A stretch of 40,114 nucleotides of DNA from a virus. The translations under genes and the position numbers were made by a program. Positions 827 to 39,512 of this stretch are shown piece by piece (positions within the stretch are counted from its first letter, which is position 1; every line of letters starts with the position of its first letter). Below the pieces are notes generated by a model, which was given only the letters and a program-made list of their open reading frames with translations, was not told the DNA's origin and ran no database searches. Location of the stretch: positions 1-40,114 of IMG/VR virus record IMGVR_UViG_3300045988_176320, one strand, 5' to 3'.

Positions 827-1231
827 ATGTTTATGGCTTACGGTGAAATAATTAAAAAAATTAGAACTGACAGGAAAATGAGTTTAAGGGCTTTTTCCGA
901 TTTGGTTGACATCAGTTTTGCACATATTCGGCGACTCGAAAACGAATTTTCCAACAAAGGAAAAGAAAAGTTACGTCCGCCGATTGACTTGCTTAAACAA
1001 ATATGCGACAAAACCAATTATCCTTTTCGCCAATTCCTTGAAGAAGCAGGATATATTGCCCCCGTCCCTGCGCCCGAACCGTCCCCTCTCCAACAGATTT
1101 ATGACGCGCTGGACGCAAATCGCAAAGATATTCTTATGCACACCGCAGAATTGTTACTAAATCAAATGGGGGAAGTCACAGAATTTCCCGATAATGATAA
1201 AATTGTTGACAACATTGGGAAAATTAACTGA
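827..1231 (+). CDS. XRE-family HTH transcriptional regulator (candidate prophage repressor); probable start ATG 833
   Basis: HTH pattern IKKIRTDRKMSLRAFSDLVDISFAHIRRLEN. GAGGAG lies 9 nt upstream of ATG 833. It sits directly upstream of the integrase and divergent from the 638 operon. Confidence 0.75.
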   Translation: MFMAYGEIIKKIRTDRKMSLRAFSDLVDISFAHIRRLENEFSNKGKEKLRPPIDLLKQICDKTNYPFRQFLEEAGYIAPVPAPEPSPLQQIYDALDANRKDILMHTAELLLNQMGEVTEFPDNDKIVDNIGKIN

Positions 1232-1272: not shown

Positions 1273-2586
1273 ATGGCATACGTTAAGGATAATTTATTAA
1301 ACGACCTTTATGAAACTGTTTTAAAATTACTCAGCTCGAAAAAAGATTATGACGATTTTATTTATAAGTCGCCGTTTTCGCTCATTGCGCCTGACAGCGA
1401 AATAATTTATAGCGACGACAACCCGTTCCCGCGCAAAATGACCGTTGAGGATTTAATGGAATCGCACGTGCAAGAAGTCGTCGCCGCGCCCGCGCCTGAA
1501 ACTGAGGTTAAAGAAGTTGATAATTTAGAATCTGAAAATGGGCTTTTGGCATTCACCGAAAAGGAGATTATCCAAATGCCTAAAAACATAAGAAAAACAT
1601 TTCGCATTCAGGGCAACGCCGTCCATGTGCGAAAAAGGACTGACGGGAGGTATAAATGTTCCTATGAAATAAGGTACTCCAAAAAACCATACGACAAAAA
1701 CCCCATATCCGTAAGTGCAACGACGTTGGAAGCGGTAAAAGCGCGGTTTATAGAAAAGCTCAACTCTTACATACCACAGAAAACTCCCGCCGCTCCCGTC
1801 ATTCCGTCCACTTTCGAGGGCTTCGCCGTCTATTGGTTTGATAACTTCCACAAAAGAAAAGTTTGCGTTCGCACTTTCGACCATGACATCAAGCTGTACA
1901 AACGCCACGTAAGCAAGCATTTCGGGAAATTTAAAATCAAGGACGTCAACGCTGTCATGCTGCAAACCTTTTTAGACGGCTTTTCCGACCGCCCTAAAAC
2001 GGCAAAAGACTTGTTCAACCTGCTCAATCAGATATTGACCTACGCTTTAAAACACGGCTTGATTAAGCTAAACCCGTTGGGTATGTGCATAATTAACGGC
2101 TACAACCAAAAGCACGGAACGCTAATCACAAAGGCGGAAGAAAAAAGTCTGTTTGACGCGTACAAAGGGACGGCGTGGGAACTGCCGCTTGCTATCGCCT
2201 GCTATTGCGGGCTGCGCCCCAATGAATACACCACCGCCACGATTGACGGCGATTTCATTAAGTCGCAAAACAGCAAGCACGGTAAAAATGGCGAGATTGT
2301 CTATAAGCGCATTCCCATTACGCCCATGCTGCGCCCGTACTTACAGGGCGTTACCGAATTGAAAATGCCTAAGCCGGAGGCGCTCACAAAACGCTTTAAA
2401 GCTGTGCTACCTCACCACAAGCTCTATGATATGCGCACAACCTTTCAAACGCGCTGCACAGAGTGCGGCATAAATGAAACCGCCATAGGGCTTTTCATGG
2501 GCAACTCAATAGGCAAACTCAAAGCGGCGTACACAGATTTTTCGGACGAGTTCCTGCTTAAAGAGGGAGAAAAATTCAGCTACTGA
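1273..2586 (+). CDS. int: Tyrosine recombinase / phage integrase
   Basis: 437 aa. Conserved boxes are visible: CYCGLRPNEY (box I Arg), HHKLYDMRTTFQTRC (H-x-x-R) and KLKAAYTDF (catalytic Tyr). It is adjacent to attP. Confidence 0.9.
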   Translation: MAYVKDNLLNDLYETVLKLLSSKKDYDDFIYKSPFSLIAPDSEIIYSDDNPFPRKMTVEDLMESHVQEVVAAPAPETEVKEVDNLESENGLLAFTEKEIIQMPKNIRKTFRIQGNAVHVRKRTDGRYKCSYEIRYSKKPYDKNPISVSATTLEAVKARFIEKLNSYIPQKTPAAPVIPSTFEGFAVYWFDNFHKRKVCVRTFDHDIKLYKRHVSKHFGKFKIKDVNAVMLQTFLDGFSDRPKTAKDLFNLLNQILTYALKHGLIKLNPLGMCIINGYNQKHGTLITKAEEKSLFDAYKGTAWELPLAIACYCGLRPNEYTTATIDGDFIKSQNSKHGKNGEIVYKRIPITPMLRPYLQGVTELKMPKPEALTKRFKAVLPHHKLYDMRTTFQTRCTECGINETAIGLFMGNSIGKLKAAYTDFSDEFLLKEGEKFSY

Positions 2587-36308: not shown

Positions 36309-36639
36309 GCAGCTTGTTCGCCTCTTCCGCGCGTCCGTTCTTGTACAGCGTCATCTCGTTACGCTCGCACAGAAGCTCGATTACCACGCTTACGGAGGCT
36401 TCCACCATGCCCTTACACCGACTTGCAATCCCCGTCTCGTTGTCCGTCGGGTACTTCTTGCGCAAGTCCTCGTAAAACTCCGTCATCAGCTTTGGCAGAT
36501 ACGTCCGCGCCGTTTCGTCGAACATTGTGGCGACCGCCTCGTTTAGCTTTATTCGCGCTTGGTCTCTCGCCCTCTTCTCCTCTTTCAACTCCGCTATTAT
36601 CTGCTCTCTGAGGGCTGCATATTCTTCTTTACTTATCAT
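36250..36639 (-). CDS. Hypothetical protein; start at ATG 36639
   Basis: AAAGGAGGA lies 5 nt upstream of ATG 36639. It is the first gene behind promoter 36677-36705. Confidence 0.55.
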   Translation of the reverse strand: MISKEEYAALREQIIAELKEEKRARDQARIKLNEAVATMFDETARTYLPKLMTEFYEDLRKKYPTDNETGIASRCKGMVEASVSVVIELLCERNEMTLYKNGRAEEANKLLAQLLEEKIERHRKNAEQQ

Positions 36640-36676
36640 GGGGTTTCCTCCTTTATTTGAAACACATTGTGTCATT

Positions 36677-36705
36677 ATTCTATGTCACACTTCGTTTCAA
36701 GTCAA
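36677..36705 (-). promoter_or_regulatory. Sigma70-like promoter, TTGACT-N17-TAGAAT, for the recombination/replication operon
   Basis: Minus-strand reading: TTGACT (36700-36705) and TAGAAT (36677-36682). The dyad AAGTGT-N6-ACACTT (36704-36721) overlaps the -35. Confidence 0.6.
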
Positions 36706-36738
36706 GTGTTTTGACACACTTTGTGTTATTTATTTTGT

Positions 36739-36948
36739 ATGGATACTTTTTCAAATCGCATTTTGCATTTACGCAAATCATCAAGCCTCACTCAACAACA
36801 AGTAGCAGACAAGCTCGGAATAACACGTGCCGCCTATTGCAACTACGAAATAGGAATACGTGAGCCTTCTATGGAAATTTTAAAAAGAATTTGCATGCTC
36901 TTTGAAGTTACTTCCGATTACCTTATCGGTCTTACCGACAACTATTAG
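36739..36948 (+). CDS. XRE-family HTH regulator (ATG 36739; the ORF track starts at TTG 36721)
   Basis: LRKSSSLTQQQVADKLGITRAAYCNYEIG. It is divergent from promoter 36677-36705. Confidence 0.65.
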   Translation: MDTFSNRILHLRKSSSLTQQQVADKLGITRAAYCNYEIGIREPSMEILKRICMLFEVTSDYLIGLTDNY

Positions 36949-37141
36949 CAGTCAATATCGCCGCGTCTACAAGCTCATCAATTACTACGTCGTATAATTC
37001 GGAGAGAGGTTTTACCTGCTCAATGCCTAAACGGCGAAAACCTCTCTCATACTGCCCAACAGCTTGTACCGTTACATTCAATTTGCTTGCTACTTCGGCT
37101 CGGCTCTTTCCTGCCGATACTCTCAATTCTTTTAGTGTCAT
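36932..37141 (-). CDS. XRE/Cro-like HTH regulator
   Basis: LRVSAGKSRAEVASKLNVTVQAVGQYERG. Its 3' end overlaps the convergent plus-strand HTH gene by 17 nt. Confidence 0.65.
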   Translation of the reverse strand: MTLKELRVSAGKSRAEVASKLNVTVQAVGQYERGFRRLGIEQVKPLSELYDVVIDELVDAAILTANSCR

Positions 37142-37274
37142 AATCTAACTTCCTTCGAGGTAAAAAATGAAATTGCAAATGCCCCAAAAATGCCCTTATT
37201 GCGGGAAAGATTTTTCTTTTTCAAGAACTTCCCACTTTGCAAAAAATTGAAACGCCTCCCAACATAGACTTTAA

Positions 37275-37502
37275 TTAACACTCCGCCACGTAGTGCCAAC
37301 AGCCCTCGTTTGTATTGCACTTGGAGGGCGGGTAGTCTTTCATGTTTATCTCCCACCTCGACGCTAAGCCCGTATACGGTAGTTTGGCGTCTACTTCCTC
37401 TTTACGCCGCTGCATCTCATCGGGCGAAAGATTGCAACATATCCGCATTTGGCACAGCCATTCTTCCATTAGCTCTATCTTGATTTCTTTTTCTTCGTTC
37501 AC
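37275..37502 (-). CDS. Hypothetical small Cys-rich protein
   Basis: 75-aa ORF between two HTH genes. Confidence 0.5.
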   Translation of the reverse strand: MNEEKEIKIELMEEWLCQMRICCNLSPDEMQRRKEEVDAKLPYTGLASRWEINMKDYPPSKCNTNEGCWHYVAEC

Positions 37503-37505
37503 GGC

Positions 37506-37715
37506 TTACTCCTCGTCGGCGATTTTGCAAATCTTCAATTCATACCCTAGCGCGTTCAGAACCCGCTCTGCCTTGTCTACCGTCGGCATGTGCCCGTAAT
37601 AAAGCCAATTCTCAATCGTCCTCACTTTTATTCCGGACGCTTTTGAAAGTTTGACGTGCGTCATTTTTGCGTTCCTGATACGCTCGATTATTAAATCCTG
37701 TATTTTCATTTCCAT
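37506..37715 (-). CDS. HTH regulator (Cro-like by position); start moved to ATG 37715
   Basis: MTHVKLSKASGIKVRTIENWLYYGHMP. The longer ORF-track version (to 37787) would run through the plus-strand promoter. Confidence 0.55.
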   Translation of the reverse strand: MEMKIQDLIIERIRNAKMTHVKLSKASGIKVRTIENWLYYGHMPTVDKAERVLNALGYELKICKIADEE

Positions 37716-37721
37716 ATTTAA

Positions 37722-37751
37722 TTGACCTGCCACTTTTTGTGGTGCTATAAT
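37722..37751 (+). promoter_or_regulatory. Strong sigma70 promoter, TTGACC-N18-(TGc)TATAAT, firing rightwards
   Basis: TTGACC at 37722-37727, an extended -10 TGCTATAAT at 37743-37751, and a CCAC-N5-GTGG dyad in the spacer. Confidence 0.65.
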
Positions 37752-37757
37752 GGTTAT

Positions 37758-38172
37758 TGCCCCATGCCCAACAGACGGAATAATCACCTGCTGGGCAAAA
37801 TGCTTGGGGCAAAGGAGCTGATTGCATGCGAAGCAATTTTTTCTTTGCCCGTTCCGAAACGTCTCATCGGGCGCGTTGTAGCTAATGGGCTAACAAGCAA
37901 AAGCGGAACCCTGAACCGCTTATAAGTACAACGCTACTTCAAGAAAAAGTGTTCTTTGAGCAACACTTCCCACAAAATGGAAGCCCTGACACAAACCGCG
38001 AAAGGTGGAGACACCTTTCCAAGGGGCACCCCATGTTGGGCGCAGAGTAGACTGCGGCGTTTTGTTTTGGGCACCTGATTGACACCCACGCCCGACAATA
38101 GAACCAAAAATTATTGATTGCCCCTTTGGCTCGTAATGAGCCGCATTCAAACACATCAAGGAGGATAGTGTA
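37758..38172 (+). ncRNA. Candidate structured non-coding RNA / long leader (family unknown; strand uncertain)
   Basis: No credible ORF is present. A 17-bp compound hairpin spans 37757-37812. A 7-bp stem with a GAGA tetraloop spans 38001-38018. A 7-bp hairpin spans 37947-37968 and a 6-bp hairpin spans 37901-37921. A 12-bp long-range helix joins 38091-38102 to 38192-38203. Confidence 0.35.
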
Positions 38173-38280
38173 ATGACGAGTTTAAAAACGCTCTATTGTC
38201 GGGGGTGTGCGGCAATCCTCTACCCGCACTTGACTTTTACAAGCAATCCATTGCATAATAGAAAATGTATTGCCTTTTAG
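38173..38280 (+). CDS. Possible 35-aa micro-ORF (MTSLKTLYCRGCAAILYPHLTFTSNPLHNRKCIAF)
   Basis: AAGGAGG lies 8 nt upstream of ATG 38173. The 3' end overlaps a hairpin plus T-run at 38243-38280. Confidence 0.25.
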   Translation: MTSLKTLYCRGCAAILYPHLTFTSNPLHNRKCIAF

Positions 38281-38289
38281 TTATTGTGG

Positions 38290-38338
38290 ACAGTCAATAG
38301 ACTGTATTTGCCTACATGATACACAGTCTTTTGACTGT
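38290..38338. promoter_or_regulatory. Two operator-like dyads, ACAGTC-N4-GACTGT
   Basis: Perfect dyads at 38290-38305 and 38323-38338, 33 bp centre to centre. The second fills the spacer of the minus-strand promoter. Confidence 0.6.
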
Positions 38339-38344
38339 TGTCAA
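38316..38344 (-). promoter_or_regulatory. Sigma70 promoter, TTGACA-N17-TATCAT, firing leftwards (face-to-face with 37722-37751)
   Basis: Minus-strand reading: TTGACA (38339-38344) and TATCAT (38316-38321). Confidence 0.6.
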
Positions 38345-38364
38345 GCATTTTCAAGGAGATTTTT

Positions 38365-38562
38365 ATGACAAATAAAATTGCCGAATATCGAAAAAAACGG
38401 AACTTAACTCAACCGCAACTTGCCACCGTGTTAGGTTTTAAGACTTATCAATCAATCCAGCAATTAGAAAACGGCAGGCGTATTCCGTCCGTAGAGGTCG
38501 CTATTCGCATTGCACGGGCACTAAACACTACCGTCGAGGAAATCTTCGTCGTTGACGACTAA
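38365..38562 (+). CDS. XRE-family HTH regulator (candidate repressor of the leftward promoter); ATG 38365
   Basis: AAGGAG lies 6 nt upstream. The HTH is YRKKRNLTQPQLATVLGFKTYQSIQQLENG. Confidence 0.7.
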   Translation: MTNKIAEYRKKRNLTQPQLATVLGFKTYQSIQQLENGRRIPSVEVAIRIARALNTTVEEIFVVDD

Positions 38563-38744
38563 TCGCCGTACAAGCCTTCTACGGTCGTTTTAAGCGTATT
38601 TGCAATCTTTATTGCCAACAGCACATTGGGTAGTTTCTTGCCGTATTCATACTGCTGATAAACTTGCCATTTTATGCCTAGCATTTCCGCCACCTGCTTT
38701 TGCGTAAGCCCCAGTTCCTTACGCCGAGCTTTCAGTCTGTTCAT
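38559..38744 (-). CDS. XRE-family HTH regulator
   Basis: RRKELGLTQKQVAEMLGIKWQVYQQYEYG. It converges on the plus-strand HTH gene with a 4-nt overlap. Confidence 0.7.
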   Translation of the reverse strand: MNRLKARRKELGLTQKQVAEMLGIKWQVYQQYEYGKKLPNVLLAIKIANTLKTTVEGLYGD

Positions 38745-38748
38745 TTCT

Positions 38749-38931
38749 TTAATCCACTAAATCGCTTATCTTGCAGTTAAGCGCAGTCGCTATTTTAGTT
38801 AGCGTCTCGCGCGTCGGATTGCCTATGCCGTTTTCAAGCCGCGTCAAATATGCTCTTCCGACTTTTGCCCTTTTTGCTAATTCCTCTTGCGTTAGTTTTG
38901 CTTCTATTCTCAAATCTCTTAATTTGTTCAT
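38749..38931 (-). CDS. XRE-family HTH regulator
   Basis: LRIEAKLTQEELAKRAKVGRAYLTRLENG. Confidence 0.7.
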   Translation of the reverse strand: MNKLRDLRIEAKLTQEELAKRAKVGRAYLTRLENGIGNPTRETLTKIATALNCKISDLVD

Positions 38932-38941
38932 ATTACCGCCC

Positions 38942-39037
38942 GTGTCTTTTTAGGCACATCATATCTAAAAAAATATTTGTGTCTATTCTGACACATCAAA
39001 AACAAACTGTCAAGCGTTTTTGTGTCACTTGCGACAC
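38942..39037. promoter_or_regulatory. Divergent promoter / operator region with GTGTC-N6-GACAC dyads
   Basis: Perfect dyads lie at 38979-38994 and 39022-39037, and a one-mismatch dyad at 38942-38957. The minus-strand promoter is TTGACA (39008-39013)-N17-CAGAAT. The plus strand has an extended -10, TGATATAAT, at 39056-39064. Confidence 0.5.
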
Positions 39038-39089
39038 TTTTTCTGAAATTTTTTATGATATAATTTAATTAATAAATTACGGAGATTCT

Positions 39090-39512
39090 ATGGGAACAAT
39101 AATTGTCGCACTAATTGCAGCTATATCCGCTATTGTAGCTCCTATCATTACTGCTTGTATCAATAATTCGCACTCTTTAAAAGCTATACAGCTTAATAAC
39201 TTTTATAAAGAAAAATTTAAATTATACACTTCTTTCGTTAGAGTATATTTTTATTGGAAAGAAGAAAAAACCAACCAAAACTATTATAACTTTGTGGCAA
39301 CTTCCTATCAAGTCATGGCTGTTTCTAATTATTTTGCAATAGATGAAATAACAAAATTACTGAGGATGTCTGAAACATTTATTTCTCACAAACCATATAT
39401 CGAAGATGGACACCCAGTCACCGAAATAGCCTTAGACCAACAATTAGTTGAATGCATTTCTCAACTTAATGAAGATATTTATCAAACTATAAAAATTACA
39501 AAAAGTAAATAA
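39090..39512 (+). CDS. Membrane-anchored hypothetical protein (accessory; A+T-rich)
   Basis: 140 aa with an N-terminal TM (IIVALIAAISAIVAPIITACI). GGAG lies 5 nt upstream of the start. It has its own promoter and terminator. Confidence 0.65.
   Translation: MGTIIVALIAAISAIVAPIITACINNSHSLKAIQLNNFYKEKFKLYTSFVRVYFYWKEEKTNQNYYNFVATSYQVMAVSNYFAIDEITKLLRMSETFISHKPYIEDGHPVTEIALDQQLVECISQLNEDIYQTIKITKSK

What the first reader, a model, noticed from the sequence alone, without database searches (positions are those of the whole stretch)
37722..38344. Face-to-face strong promoters enclosing about 570 bp of structured, apparently non-coding sequence between two HTH genes
**Promoters.** A near-consensus rightward promoter sits 7 nt from the start codon of the leftward HTH gene 37506-37715. 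It reads TTGACC 37722-37727, N18, extended -10 TGCTATAAT 37743-37751. A near-consensus leftward promoter sits about 20 nt from the RBS of the rightward HTH gene 38365-38562. It reads TTGACA 38339-38344, N17, TATCAT 38316-38321. Each regulator gene therefore lies beyond the opposing promoter. The two transcripts must overlap in antisense over roughly 550-600 nt.

**Coding content.** In a genome that is otherwise packed with ATGA-type gene overlaps, this interval has no credible ORF. It holds only junk-like 67-79-aa frames and one 35-aa micro-ORF.

**Operators.** Two perfect dyads, ACAGTC-N4-GACTGT, lie at 38290-38305 and 38323-38338. One exactly fills the spacer of the leftward promoter. A CCAC-N5-GTGG dyad sits in the spacer of the rightward promoter.

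**RNA structure (helices found by hand):**
- A 17-bp compound hairpin at the predicted 5' end: 37757-37764 with 37805-37812, 37765-37770 with 37792-37797, and 37772-37774 with 37888-37890.
- AAGCGG / CCGCTT, 37901-37906 with 37916-37921.
- AAGTGTT / AACACTT, 37947-37953 with 37962-37968.
- AAAGGTG-GAGA-CACCTTT at 38001-38018. This is a GNRA tetraloop only on the plus strand.
- A 12-bp long-range helix, CCCGACAATAGA 38091-38102 with TCTATTGTCGGG 38192-38203.
- A competing or pseudoknotted helix, 38021-38028 with 38119-38127.

**Interpretation.** Convergent-promoter switches are known, for example coliphage 186/P2-type lysis-lysogeny control by transcriptional interference. A half-kilobase structured overlap is unusual. 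It could be a large regulatory or immunity RNA, a riboregulated leader, or a member of a large phage-associated ncRNA class.
Basis: partly seen in the sequence, partly recalled or inferred. Interest (0 to 1): 0.7.

Follow-up and report, generated by a model that had tools for sequence, protein, structure and literature searches.

The report
Phage switch RNA of FuFi-1 family
The "structured non-coding" stretch is a partly deleted copy of a known but unexplained bacterial RNA family (FuFi-1). It sits between face-to-face promoters in the lysis-lysogeny control region of a gut-bacterial phage, and that placement recurs in many other phages, which gives this orphan RNA a testable role.

Summary
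Both near-consensus promoters, both ACAGTC-N4-GACTGT dyads and all hand-found helices are present, and no frame in the interval is conserved.

The plus-strand transcript from 37722-37751 is a FuFi-1-family RNA (Rfam RF02986). The window copy scores only 25.8 bits against a threshold of 59.6. Alleles about 99% identical outside one indel hotspot score 59.9-61.8. The window allele has a 44-nt deletion that removes the family's most conserved linker (GGUAAACAAAUU) and most of the terminator.

Across about 85 FuFi-1 loci collected from phage and Clostridia contigs (about 21 diverse ones examined in detail), the layout repeats:
- a cro-like gene on the opposite strand, starting 15-56 nt from the RNA promoter;
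- a strong RNA promoter, the RNA and a terminator;
- then a strong leftward promoter;
- then a cI-like gene.

Early lytic transcription therefore has to read antisense through the RNA gene.

The family also carries a 5' domain that no Rfam family covers. It is shared by the window. In long forms it includes a roughly 140-nt middle domain supported by covariation.

The right 120 bp is a swappable immunity cassette: repressor, two operators and the leftward promoter.

The mechanism is inferred only: convergent-transcription interference plus antisense pairing. The RNA is a known kind in a new setting.

The parts
37506..37715 (-). cro-like small HTH gene (69 aa), first gene of the leftward early operon
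   Evidence: ORF. The exact protein is found on 23+ contigs with a weak PF01381 HTH_3 hit, followed by Sak/SSAP, SSB and other early genes.
37722..37751 (+). P_RNA: promoter of the FuFi-1-family RNA (TTGACC-18-TGcTATAAT), 7 nt from the cro-like start codon
   Evidence: 11/12 with extended -10. Kept at the same place in all sister cassettes. An equivalent promoter with its -35 at about -245 from FuFi-1 P1 occurs in diverse long-form loci.
37757..37812 (+). H1: compound hairpin at the 5' end of the RNA. Enlarged version of the family's UGCC-loop-GGCA hairpin.
   Evidence: Perfect arms. In the MFE fold. Position corresponds to H1 of the family's 5' domain.
37811..37837 (+). SD-like AAAGGAG (37811-37817), then hairpin H2 (ATTGC 37821-37825 with GCAAT 33-37) carrying an ATG (37826-37828) in its loop
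   Evidence: Read. Covered by the nhmmer 5'-domain hit. The family keeps an SD plus a start codon at this spot.
37844..37855 (+). UUUGCCCGUUCC: conserved 5'-domain motif. GUUCC can pair with GGAGC at 37814-37818.
   Evidence: A profile built from 21 members of other lineages hits 37792-37855 as the top hit in the window, E = 9e-4. The GGAG:YUCC pairing was predicted by RNAalifold.
37874..38061 (+). FuFi-1 core (Rfam RF02986), divergent and internally deleted.
   Evidence: cmscan 25.8 bits, E = 0.0025, full model span. Sister alleles L012, L016 and L018 score 59.9-61.8 bits against a gathering score of 59.6.
38049..38050 (+). Junction of a 44-nt deletion that removed GUUUCGGUAAACAAAUUAGGGCAAACCGUCGCAGCCGCUCAAAG: the conserved linker and the 5' half of the terminator stem
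   Evidence: Alignment of 15 distinct alleles. The same deletion is in L011 and L020 from other samples. An independent 12-nt deletion of GUAAACAAAUUA is in 9 loci.
38041..38068 (+). Residual terminator: 5-bp CGCAG/CUGCG hairpin plus UUUUGUUUU
   Evidence: Terminator scan. Hairpin -9.6 kcal/mol, against -25 in intact alleles.
38077..38217 (.). Lineage-specific spacer element: 26-nt-arm inverted repeat with an 89-nt loop that holds a strong RBS and the start of the 35-aa micro-ORF (38173-38280). Function unknown.
   Evidence: Extended similarity to this stretch was seen only in sister loci of the window's own lineage; two other 16-mer hits (L289, L290) showed none.
38230..38259 (+). P2: rightward promoter for the cassette HTH gene. 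The -35 TTGACT lies on the conserved side of the recombination breakpoint (about 38236) and the -10 is cassette-specific.
   Evidence: 10/12. Each sister cassette supplies its own -10 at the correct spacing. Breakpoint.
38290..38305 (.). Operator O1 (ACAGTC-AATA-GACTGT), between the two convergent start sites
38323..38338 (.). Operator O2 (ACAGTC-TTTT-GACTGT), filling the spacer of the leftward promoter, 33 bp from O1
   Evidence: Sister cassettes have other 6-N4-6 dyads with the same 33-bp geometry.
38316..38344 (-). P_lyt: leftward (early lytic) promoter TTGACA-17-TATCAT
   Evidence: 11/12. Each cassette has its own. An equivalent lies downstream of the RNA terminator in about 17 of 21 diverse FuFi-1 loci.
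38365..38562 (+). Cassette-specific small HTH regulator (65 aa), presumed to bind O1 and O2
   Evidence: PF01381, PF12844 and PF13560 hits. It is swapped together with the dyads.

Best explanation
This is the lysis-lysogeny control region of a temperate phage of gut Clostridia. It is built from two modules.

**Module 1 (37716-38236).**
- It travels with the cro-like gene.
- It is a gene for a FuFi-1-family RNA of about 310 nt with its own strong promoter.
- The RNA has a 5' hairpin, an SD-like site with a start codon, the FuFi-1 core, and a terminator.
- The window holds a reduced allele. It is a short form without the family's middle domain. It carries a 44-nt deletion of the conserved linker and most of the terminator.

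**Module 2 (38237-38562).**
- It is an exchangeable immunity cassette.
- It holds a small HTH repressor, two 16-bp operators 33 bp apart, the leftward lytic promoter, and the -10 of a rightward promoter.
- The two cassette promoters face each other, as in coliphages 186 and P2.

**Shown by sequence comparison.**
- The only credible promoter for the early lytic operon lies beyond the RNA gene.
- The lytic transcript must therefore be made antisense through the whole RNA gene and across its promoter.
- The same layout recurs in unrelated FuFi-1-bearing phages.

**Inferred.**
- In a lysogen the repressor shuts the lytic promoter and the RNA is made.
- Any lytic transcription then meets RNA polymerases coming from the RNA promoter (collision or occlusion), and its leader can pair with the abundant complementary RNA.
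- The RNA gene would thus act as a threshold or brake on entry into the lytic cycle.
- The fold is conserved across phages with different repressors. This suggests the RNA also binds a conserved, probably host, partner.
- The 5' hairpin plus SD and start codon probably recruit a ribosome, which would stabilise the RNA or translate a very short leader.
For: **Identity of the RNA.**
- The window hits RF02986 over the full model.
- Alleles about 99% identical outside the indel hotspot pass the gathering score.
- Twelve diverse loci score 107-147 bits.

**5' domain.**
- A profile from other lineages hits window 37792-37855 (+), E = 9e-4, as the top hit.
- The middle domain of long forms has 93.6% of cells paired, against 36-53% in slid controls. 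Sixteen of 21 pairs change on both sides, and 0 of 500 shuffles reach the observed values.
- No Rfam family covers it.

**Layout.**
- The RNA promoter sits at a fixed distance from the core.
- The divergent upstream gene starts 15-56 nt from the -35.
- A leftward promoter scoring 10-12/12 lies 150-700 nt past the terminator in about 17 of 21 loci.
- Downstream co-directional genes are CI/LexA-type (HTH_3 plus Peptidase_S24). Upstream genes are Cro-type HTH or HTH_17.

**Window.**
- No other minus-strand promoter or terminator lies between 38316 and 37716.

**Cassette.**
- Breakpoint at about 38236.
- Cassette-specific promoters.
- Dyads that co-vary with the HTH gene.
- Dyad statistics.
Against: - There are no transcript data: every promoter and terminator is a consensus match.
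- The window allele has lost the family's most conserved motif. More than half of its lineage carries a 12-nt or 44-nt deletion there. The RNA may be dispensable or decaying in this lineage.
- A purely antisense role would not need sequence conserved across heteroimmune phages.
- The original description of the family found no function. It judged a riboswitch role improbable and detected no self-cleavage (PMC5737381).
- A weak, non-consensus promoter for the cro-like gene closer to it cannot be excluded.
- With the weakened terminator, the plus transcript may read through to the HTH gene.
Confidence: 0.6

Rival explanations
1. The RNA is a cis-acting leader or attenuator of the rightward (lysogenic) operon. 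Transcription from 37722-37751 reads through the RNA and its terminator into the HTH gene at 38365. The RNA fold decides how much read-through occurs, like a riboswitch or a protein-controlled attenuator.
For: - The RNA and the cI-like gene are always co-directional.
- A conserved SD, start codon and very short ORF precede a structured RNA and a terminator, as in leader-peptide attenuators.
- In the window the terminator is weakened to -9.6 kcal/mol.
Against: - A separate near-consensus promoter usually lies between the terminator and the cI-like gene.
- The distance from terminator to gene varies from 10 to 670 nt, with unrelated sequence in between.
- The terminator does not obviously compete with any other helix of the core.
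- The authors of the family found it rarely in 5' UTRs (PMC5737381).
Confidence: 0.15
2. The RNA works in trans on a conserved host or phage partner, for example RNA polymerase, the ribosome, an RNase or a defence system. Its position opposite the lytic promoter is only where lysogeny-expressed accessory genes are kept.
For: - Long single-stranded stretches and loops are invariant across phages with different repressors: GGGUAAACAAAUUUGG, GCAGAACCAAAACUGC, UUUGCCUGYUCC.
- GNRA loops and a multi-stem junction are typical of RNAs with tertiary structure.
- Deletion alleles are frequent in one lineage, which suggests an accessory rather than core function.
Against: - The RNA promoter abuts the first early gene in nearly every lineage, and the lytic promoter lies beyond the RNA. 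That placement is hard to explain as accidental.
- No protein family consistently co-occurs apart from the HTH regulators.
Confidence: 0.2
3. The functional product is the very short peptide encoded after the SD (consensus M-T-K-L-L-x-L-P-V/A-P), or the locus is a type I toxin-antitoxin-like pair. The RNA structure would serve only to control its translation.
For: - An SD 7-10 nt upstream and an in-frame TTG, GTG or ATG are present in the examined long-form and short-form members.
- Where TTG became TTA, an ATG lies one codon upstream.
- The two proline codons use all four synonymous codons.
Against: - The ORF length varies from 12 to 36 codons, and stop codons come and go according to RNA pairing.
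- Leucine is always TTG.
- The frame is broken in L047 and in the window lineage. There the ATG at 37826 encodes an unrelated 19-aa peptide.
- Mean variability by codon position is nearly flat: 0.61, 0.65 and 0.78.
- The peptide is too short for a membrane toxin.
Confidence: 0.07
4. The interval hides a protein-coding gene that the reader and the gene callers missed.
For: ORFs of 67-79 aa exist on both strands.
Against: - Indels of 1, 12 and 44 nt among near-identical alleles break them.
- No gene was called in 20 related contigs.
- Variation follows base-pairing.
- Antisense ORFs over the core are open in only a few lineages.
Confidence: 0.02

Closest known systems
FuFi-1 RNA motif (Rfam RF02986; Weinberg et al. 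2017, PMC5737381)
   Same: - Same helices and conserved loops: P1 enclosing the GCnGAAC..AACnGC hairpin, the AAGU motif, a multi-stem junction, and a 3' terminator.
- Sister alleles pass the curated threshold.
- Host range is Firmicutes (Clostridia).
   Different: - The window copy fails the threshold (25.8 bits against 59.6).
- It lacks the GGUAAACAAAUU linker, has a 1-nt longer GAAC loop, and has a roughly 65-nt insertion in the third hairpin.
- The Rfam model covers only the 3' 160-175 nt. The transcription unit found here starts 110-215 nt further upstream.
- The main text of the original paper assigns no function and names no associated neighbouring protein for FuFi-1. Its supplement could not be read.
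Convergent (face-to-face) lysis-lysogeny promoters of coliphages 186 (pR/pL) and P2 (Pe/Pc)
   Same: - The lytic and lysogenic promoters face each other and each gene lies beyond the opposing promoter.
- A Cro/Apl-like gene comes first in the lytic operon.
- The repressor's operators lie over the lytic promoter.
- Transcriptional interference between convergent promoters is an established mechanism (PMC5001618, PMC6593788). The 186 and P2 details come from my own knowledge.
   Different: - The proteins are unrelated and the host is Gram-positive.
- Here a third strong promoter and a conserved structured RNA gene are inserted between the lytic promoter and its first gene. The antisense overlap is 300-600 nt instead of about 35-62 nt.
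Enterococcus plasmid pCF10 prgQ/prgX switch (Anti-Q RNA)
   Same: Convergent promoters with an overlap of a few hundred nt. A terminated, structured antisense RNA acts on the opposing transcript. Interference and antisense pairing combine to give a bistable switch. All from my own knowledge.
   Different: - That is a plasmid conjugation switch controlled by peptides.
- Anti-Q is not conserved across unrelated elements.
- No homology was tested or is expected.
Phage immunity and antisense RNAs: P4 CI RNA, P1/P7 c4, P22 sar, lambda OOP
   Same: Small phage RNAs made in the lysogen that act on early or antirepressor transcripts by pairing (my own knowledge).
   Different: - Those RNAs are 70-100 nt, specific to each immunity type, and not conserved as a fold across heteroimmune phages.
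- FuFi-1-class RNAs are 300-400 nt with invariant loops.
5' stabilisers of Bacillus mRNAs (aprE leader, cryIIIA STAB-SD, ermC leader)
   Same: A hairpin at the very 5' end followed by a strong SD (GAAAGGAG) that binds a ribosome without a need for a real gene. This resembles 37757-37828 and the family's 5' domain (my own knowledge; a resemblance only).
   Different: Not tested. Here a start codon and a short ORF are also conserved.

Membership tests
FuFi-1 RNA (RF02986) | Score at or above Rfam's gathering threshold (59.6 bits) | tested here: not met
   The window scores 25.8 bits, E = 0.0025. Alleles L012, L016 and L018, which differ mainly by carrying the 44 nt deleted in the window, score 59.9-61.8 bits.
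FuFi-1 RNA (RF02986) | P1 stem enclosing a hairpin with the GAAC..AAC loop, followed by AAGU | tested here: met
   CGUUGUA...UACAACG encloses GCGGAACCCUGAACCGC and then UAUAAGU. It aligns with high posterior probability and has one extra loop base.
FuFi-1 RNA (RF02986) | Junction helix enclosing two hairpins, with the AUAGAA and UGCA joining strands | tested here: met
   CUACUU with GAGUAG, hairpin AAGUGUU/AACACUU, and a third hairpin with a large insertion. The joining strands read A-AGAA and CGCA.
FuFi-1 RNA (RF02986) | Conserved single-stranded linker GGGUAAAcAAAUUUGG | tested here: not met
   Deleted in the window (junction 38049/38050). Present as CGGUAAACAAAUUAGGG in sister alleles.
FuFi-1 RNA (RF02986) | Rho-independent terminator at the 3' end | tested here: inconclusive
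   Only a 5-bp hairpin plus U-run remains, -9.6 kcal/mol against -25 in intact alleles.
186/P2-type convergent-promoter switch | Lytic and lysogenic promoters face to face, each gene beyond the opposing promoter | tested here: met
   P2 at 38230-38259 (+) and P_lyt at 38344-38316 (-). Predicted start sites are about 43 nt apart. These are consensus matches only.
186/P2-type convergent-promoter switch | Repressor operators over the lytic promoter; repressor gene downstream of the lysogenic promoter | tested here: met
   O2 fills the P_lyt spacer. The dyads co-vary with the HTH gene across cassettes. Binding itself was not tested.
186/P2-type convergent-promoter switch | Measured transcriptional interference between the promoters | not testable with these tools
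   Needs reporter assays.
186/P2-type convergent-promoter switch | Homology of the regulators to 186 CI/Apl or P2 C/Cox | not tested
   The proteins here are small XRE-type HTH proteins. No comparison with the 186 or P2 proteins was run.
cis-antisense RNA regulator | Discrete RNA with its own promoter and terminator, fully complementary to the leader of the regulated transcript | tested here: inconclusive
   The geometry fits in the window and in about 17 of 21 diverse loci. Neither transcript has been observed.
   No hit at gathering thresholds in the window, and none at E <= 10 in 37500-38600.

The most novel reading that the evidence does not exclude
FuFi-1 may be only the 3' domain of a 300-400-nt phage RNA that is a third, RNA-based component of a convergent-promoter lysis-lysogeny switch, widespread in temperate phages of gut Clostridia. 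The RNA gene lies inside the leader of the early lytic operon on the opposite strand. It would set the threshold for induction, or give cross-immunity against related phages, by interference plus pairing. Its conserved fold and ribosome-binding 5' end would engage a host factor. The recurrent deletions of its linker in the window's lineage would be natural loss- or change-of-function alleles that alter induction behaviour.
Probability: 0.35. Interest if true: 0.8.

Novelty: new variant of a known kind. Interest (0 to 1): 0.6.

Why it matters
FuFi-1 was singled out in 2017 as one of a few orphan RNAs whose conservation suggests a sophisticated biochemical function, and no function or genetic context was given in the paper's main text.

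This analysis adds three things:
- It places the RNA at a fixed position in phage immunity regions, facing the lytic promoter.
- It extends the transcription unit by a conserved 5' domain.
- It finds natural deletion alleles.

Together these turn an open question into concrete experiments: promoter knock-outs, cis versus trans tests, and induction assays.

It would also add an RNA layer to the convergent-promoter type of phage switch, in the poorly studied prophages of human-gut Clostridia.

For the window itself the result is more modest. It holds a reduced, possibly decaying member of a known RNA family next to an ordinary exchangeable repressor-operator cassette.

Tried and rejected
- **Other Rfam families.** Nothing at gathering thresholds in the window. 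Only chance-level hits besides FuFi-1 at E <= 10. Nothing covers the 5' extension of a typical member even at E <= 1.
- **Cultured phages.** The window region and two typical FuFi-1 RNAs gave no blastn match in 50,697 GenBank phage records. No studied phage can be used as a guide.
- **CCAC-N5-GTGG as an operator.** Not significant. No dyad recurs in the RNA-promoter spacers of other lineages.
- **Long-range pairing of 5' UUUGCCU with linker GGGUAAA.**
  - RNAalifold proposed it.
  - Both strands are nearly invariant. Where they do vary, in the window lineage, L262, L267 and L275, the changes are not compensatory.
  - It is not claimed.
- **Micro-ORF 38173-38280 as a gene.** Its C-terminus depends on the cassette.
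- **Spacer inverted repeat as a mobile element.** A 16-mer from the 38077-38217 repeat found extended similarity only in the same lineage, plus two hits that share only the 16-mer.
- **Window-specific helices.** H1 extension, 38001-38018, and 38091-38102 with 38192-38203. All relatives are >=90% identical, so covariation cannot be judged.
- **Supplement of Weinberg et al. 2017.** Not held.
- **Genome scan.** Most of the 120 GTDB genome hits to the degenerate linker pattern were chance matches. Only 7 of them, all Clostridia, were true FuFi-1 loci.
Full report
**1. The observation**

The sequence is as described.
- The promoter scan ranks two sites as the best in 36500-39200: TTGACC-18-TGcTATAAT at 37722-37751 (+) and TTGACA-17-TATCAT at 38344-38316 (-). 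Both score 11/12.
- No other minus-strand promoter-like or terminator-like site lies between them.
- ACAGTC-N4-GACTGT occurs only at 38290-38305 and 38323-38338 in the whole window. Chance expectation is 0.04.
- All hand-found helices are perfectly complementary. One is off by a base.
- The 12-bp helix is the core of a 26-nt-arm inverted repeat.
- Both strands fold better than shuffles, with z of -3.3 and -5.6.
- The CCAC-N5-GTGG dyad is no better than chance.

**2. Context**

- The window is a circularly permuted temperate-phage genome. Structural, replication and early genes run leftward down from 37715, and an integrase lies at 1273-2586 (+).
- The two HTH proteins flanking the interval occur unchanged on dozens of metagenomic contigs. 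In all 20 loci fetched, the gene callers left the interval empty.
- The left 520 bp (37716-38236) is about 99% conserved across these loci, apart from one indel hotspot.
- Right of about 38236, at least four unrelated sequences alternate, each with a different small HTH gene.
- The interval therefore consists of two modules that recombine at 38236.

**3. Identity of the left module**

- A permissive Rfam search gave one non-trivial hit: FuFi-1 (RF02986) at 37874-38061 (+). It spans the full model but scores only 25.8 bits against a gathering score of 59.6, with E = 0.0025.
- Sister alleles L012, L016 and L018 score 59.9-61.8 bits, above the threshold.
- The difference is a 44-nt deletion in the window (junction 38049/38050). 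It removes the family's most conserved linker, GGUAAACAAAUU, and the 5' half of the terminator stem.
- The same deletion is present in two other samples.
- An independent 12-nt deletion of exactly GUAAACAAAUUA is present in nine loci.
- The residual hairpin is worth -9.6 kcal/mol, against -25 for intact alleles.

**4. The family at large**

- A degenerate pattern from the linker recovered 61 true FuFi-1 loci (43 distinct) from IMG/VR and from Clostridia genomes: Lachnospiraceae, Oscillospiraceae, Ruminococcus, Eubacterium, Faecousia and Acutalibacteraceae.
- Twelve diverse ones score 107-147 bits.
- A second pattern recovered 24 more distinct 'short-form' members.
- Three features recur.

*(a) The conserved unit starts well upstream of the Rfam model.*
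- A promoter-like site sits with its -35 at about -245 from P1 in long forms, and at -107 to -159 in short forms.
- Everything between that promoter and P1 is conserved.
- The 5' end has four parts:
  - a terminal hairpin;
  - GAAAGGAG;
  - a second hairpin holding a start codon;
  - CUUUUGAnUUUGCCUGYUCC.
- Long forms then add a middle domain of about 140 nt. Its helices covary strongly:
  - 93.6% of cells are paired, against 36-53% in slid controls;
  - 16 of 21 pairs change on both sides;
  - 0 of 500 shuffles reach the observed values.
- No Rfam family matches this part, even at E <= 1.
- A profile of the 5' end built without the window's lineage finds window 37792-37855 (+) as its best hit, E = 9e-4.
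- The window RNA is therefore a short form: the 5' domain (37757-37855), then the FuFi-1 core (37874-38061), then a residual terminator.

*(b) The gene upstream is always on the other strand.*
- It starts 15-56 nt from the RNA promoter's -35, and 7 nt in the window.
- Where recognisable it is a Cro-type HTH or an HTH_17 protein.
- The next gene downstream on the RNA's strand is a CI-type repressor. In two cases it has a Peptidase_S24 domain.

*(c) A leftward promoter lies past the terminator.*
- In about 17 of 21 loci a leftward promoter scoring 10-12/12 lies 150-700 nt past the terminator.
- Often a second rightward promoter lies just after the terminator.
- None of the 21 loci has a leftward promoter at this score inside the RNA gene itself. 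One locus (L185) has one just upstream of the RNA promoter.
- The early lytic operon can only be reached by transcribing the RNA gene backwards.

**5. The right module**

- Each alternative cassette of the window's lineage keeps the conserved -35 TTGACT (window 38230) and supplies its own -10.
- Each has its own leftward TTGACA promoter with an extended -10.
- Each has its own pair of 6-N4-6 dyads 33 bp apart:
  - ACAGTC/GACTGT in the window;
  - ACATCA/TGATGT in L018;
  - AATACA/TGTATT in L014.
- Operators that change together with the adjacent HTH gene, in an unchanged geometry, are the signature of an exchangeable immunity cassette.
- In the window, O2 fills the spacer of the leftward promoter. 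O1 lies between the two predicted start sites (about 38266 rightward and about 38309 leftward).
- These two promoters are convergent with an overlap of about 43 nt, as in coliphages 186 and P2 (my own knowledge of those phages).
- Transcriptional interference at convergent promoters is documented in PMC5001618 and PMC6593788.

**6. How it probably works**

*Shown:* the anatomy above and its conservation.

*Inferred:*
- The cassette repressor holds the leftward promoter off in the lysogen, while the RNA promoter, which has no recognisable operator, stays on.
- Lytic transcription that escapes or is induced must pass 600 nt against polymerases coming from a strong promoter. It also produces a leader fully complementary to an abundant, structured RNA.
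- Either effect would damp expression of the cro-like operon, so the RNA gene would act as a brake or threshold.

*Why this cannot be the whole story:*
- An antisense role does not require the invariant loops shared by phages with different repressors.
- The RNA probably also binds something conserved.
- The 5' hairpin followed by a strong SD and a start codon resembles the ribosome-dependent 5' stabilisers of Bacillus mRNAs. This is a resemblance from memory, not a test.

*The short ORF after the SD:*
- Its consensus is MTKLLxLPVP.
- For translation: the start codon is conserved, and the proline codons use all four synonymous forms.
- Against a functional peptide: ORF length varies from 12 to 36 codons, and the frame is broken in L047 and in the window.

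**7. Rivals**

- A leader or attenuator for the repressor operon is possible, more so in the window where the terminator is crippled. It fits poorly with the separate promoter and the variable spacer downstream.
- A purely trans-acting RNA whose position is incidental fits the conserved loops but not the fixed placement.
- A peptide or toxin role is unlikely, and a missed protein gene is essentially excluded.
- In the window's lineage the repeated loss of the linker may mean the RNA is dispensable or decaying there.

**8. Known or new**

- The RNA is a divergent, deleted member of a known family.
- The cassette and the face-to-face promoters are of a known kind.
- Three points appear undescribed in the one paper that mentions FuFi-1 (main text read; supplement unavailable):
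  - the constant placement of FuFi-1 in phage switch regions opposite the lytic promoter;
  - the 5' domain;
  - the natural deletion alleles.
- No cultured phage in GenBank carries a detectable copy.

**9. Verdict**

- Identity of the RNA has high confidence, about 0.9.
- The conserved architecture has confidence of about 0.8.
- The mechanism is inferred, at about 0.35-0.4.
- Interest is 0.6. For the window alone this is a reduced copy of a known RNA. For the family it gives a first concrete, testable context.

Noticed in passing
L021, L027, L032, L033, L043, L045, L047, L051, L073, L116, L127, L129, L176, L177, L185, L188 (alignment A1, columns about 40-296): Long-form FuFi-1 RNAs carry a conserved 5' extension of about 210 nt that is not in the Rfam model. 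It includes a middle domain with strongly covarying helices: 16 of 21 pairs change on both sides, and 93.6% of cells are paired against 36-53% in slid controls.
   Followed up: yes
5' domain of all FuFi-1 loci; window 37811-37885: A conserved SD (AAAGGAG), an in-frame TTG/GTG/ATG start and a very short ORF (consensus MTKLLxLPVP, 12-36 codons). The proline codons use all four synonymous forms. In the window the ATG is in another frame and would give MRSNFFFARSETSHRARCS.
   Followed up: partly
window 38049/38050; L001, L003-L007, L009, L010, L017 (12-nt deletion); L011, L020 (44-nt deletion): Two independent deletions remove the family's most conserved linker (GUAAACAAAUUA) in more than half of the window's lineage. 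Both occur on more than one immunity cassette. This may be relaxed selection or selected loss of function.
   Followed up: partly
L021/L042/L262-type, L267/L279/L287, L271, L274/L278 (IMG/VR loci): In four lineages a 13-24-bp inverted repeat links the -35 region of the RNA promoter with the DNA just after the terminator. Its sequence is lineage-specific, for example CATTGACTGCGGCGGGGA or TAGCTATTGAATTCAGGCAAAAGA. It could be a paired operator or a long helix in the leftward transcript. It is absent from the window's lineage.
   Followed up: partly
window 38077-38217: A 26-nt-arm inverted repeat (85% complementary) with an 89-nt loop holding AAGGAGG-N7-ATG of a 35-aa micro-ORF. Extended similarity to this stretch was seen only in sister loci of this phage lineage. 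No target-site duplication was seen. Function unknown.
   Followed up: partly
window about 38236: The recombination breakpoint between the conserved module and the immunity cassettes falls inside a promoter, between its -35 (conserved TTGACT) and its -10 (cassette-specific).
   Followed up: yes
window 36721-36948 (+) with 36932-37141 (-); 38365-38562 (+) with 38559-38744 (-); also 38749-38931 (-): The region holds six small XRE-type HTH genes. They include two convergent pairs whose 3' ends overlap by 17 and 4 nt. These pairs are present, absent or replaced in related contigs, so they look like exchangeable units.
   Followed up: no
window 1273-2586 (+), 827-1231 (+); loci L011, L014, L020: The integrase and an adjacent 134-aa weak-HTH gene lie at the other end of the window. 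In related contigs the prophage abuts an FMN-reductase gene and an iron-containing alcohol dehydrogenase gene, so the window is a permuted or excised form of an integrated prophage.
   Followed up: no
window 37797-37806 and 38342-38351: A perfect 10-nt inverted repeat (AAAATGCTTG / CAAGCATTTT) joins the 5' hairpin of the RNA to the -35 region of the leftward promoter, 535 nt away. It may be chance.
   Followed up: no
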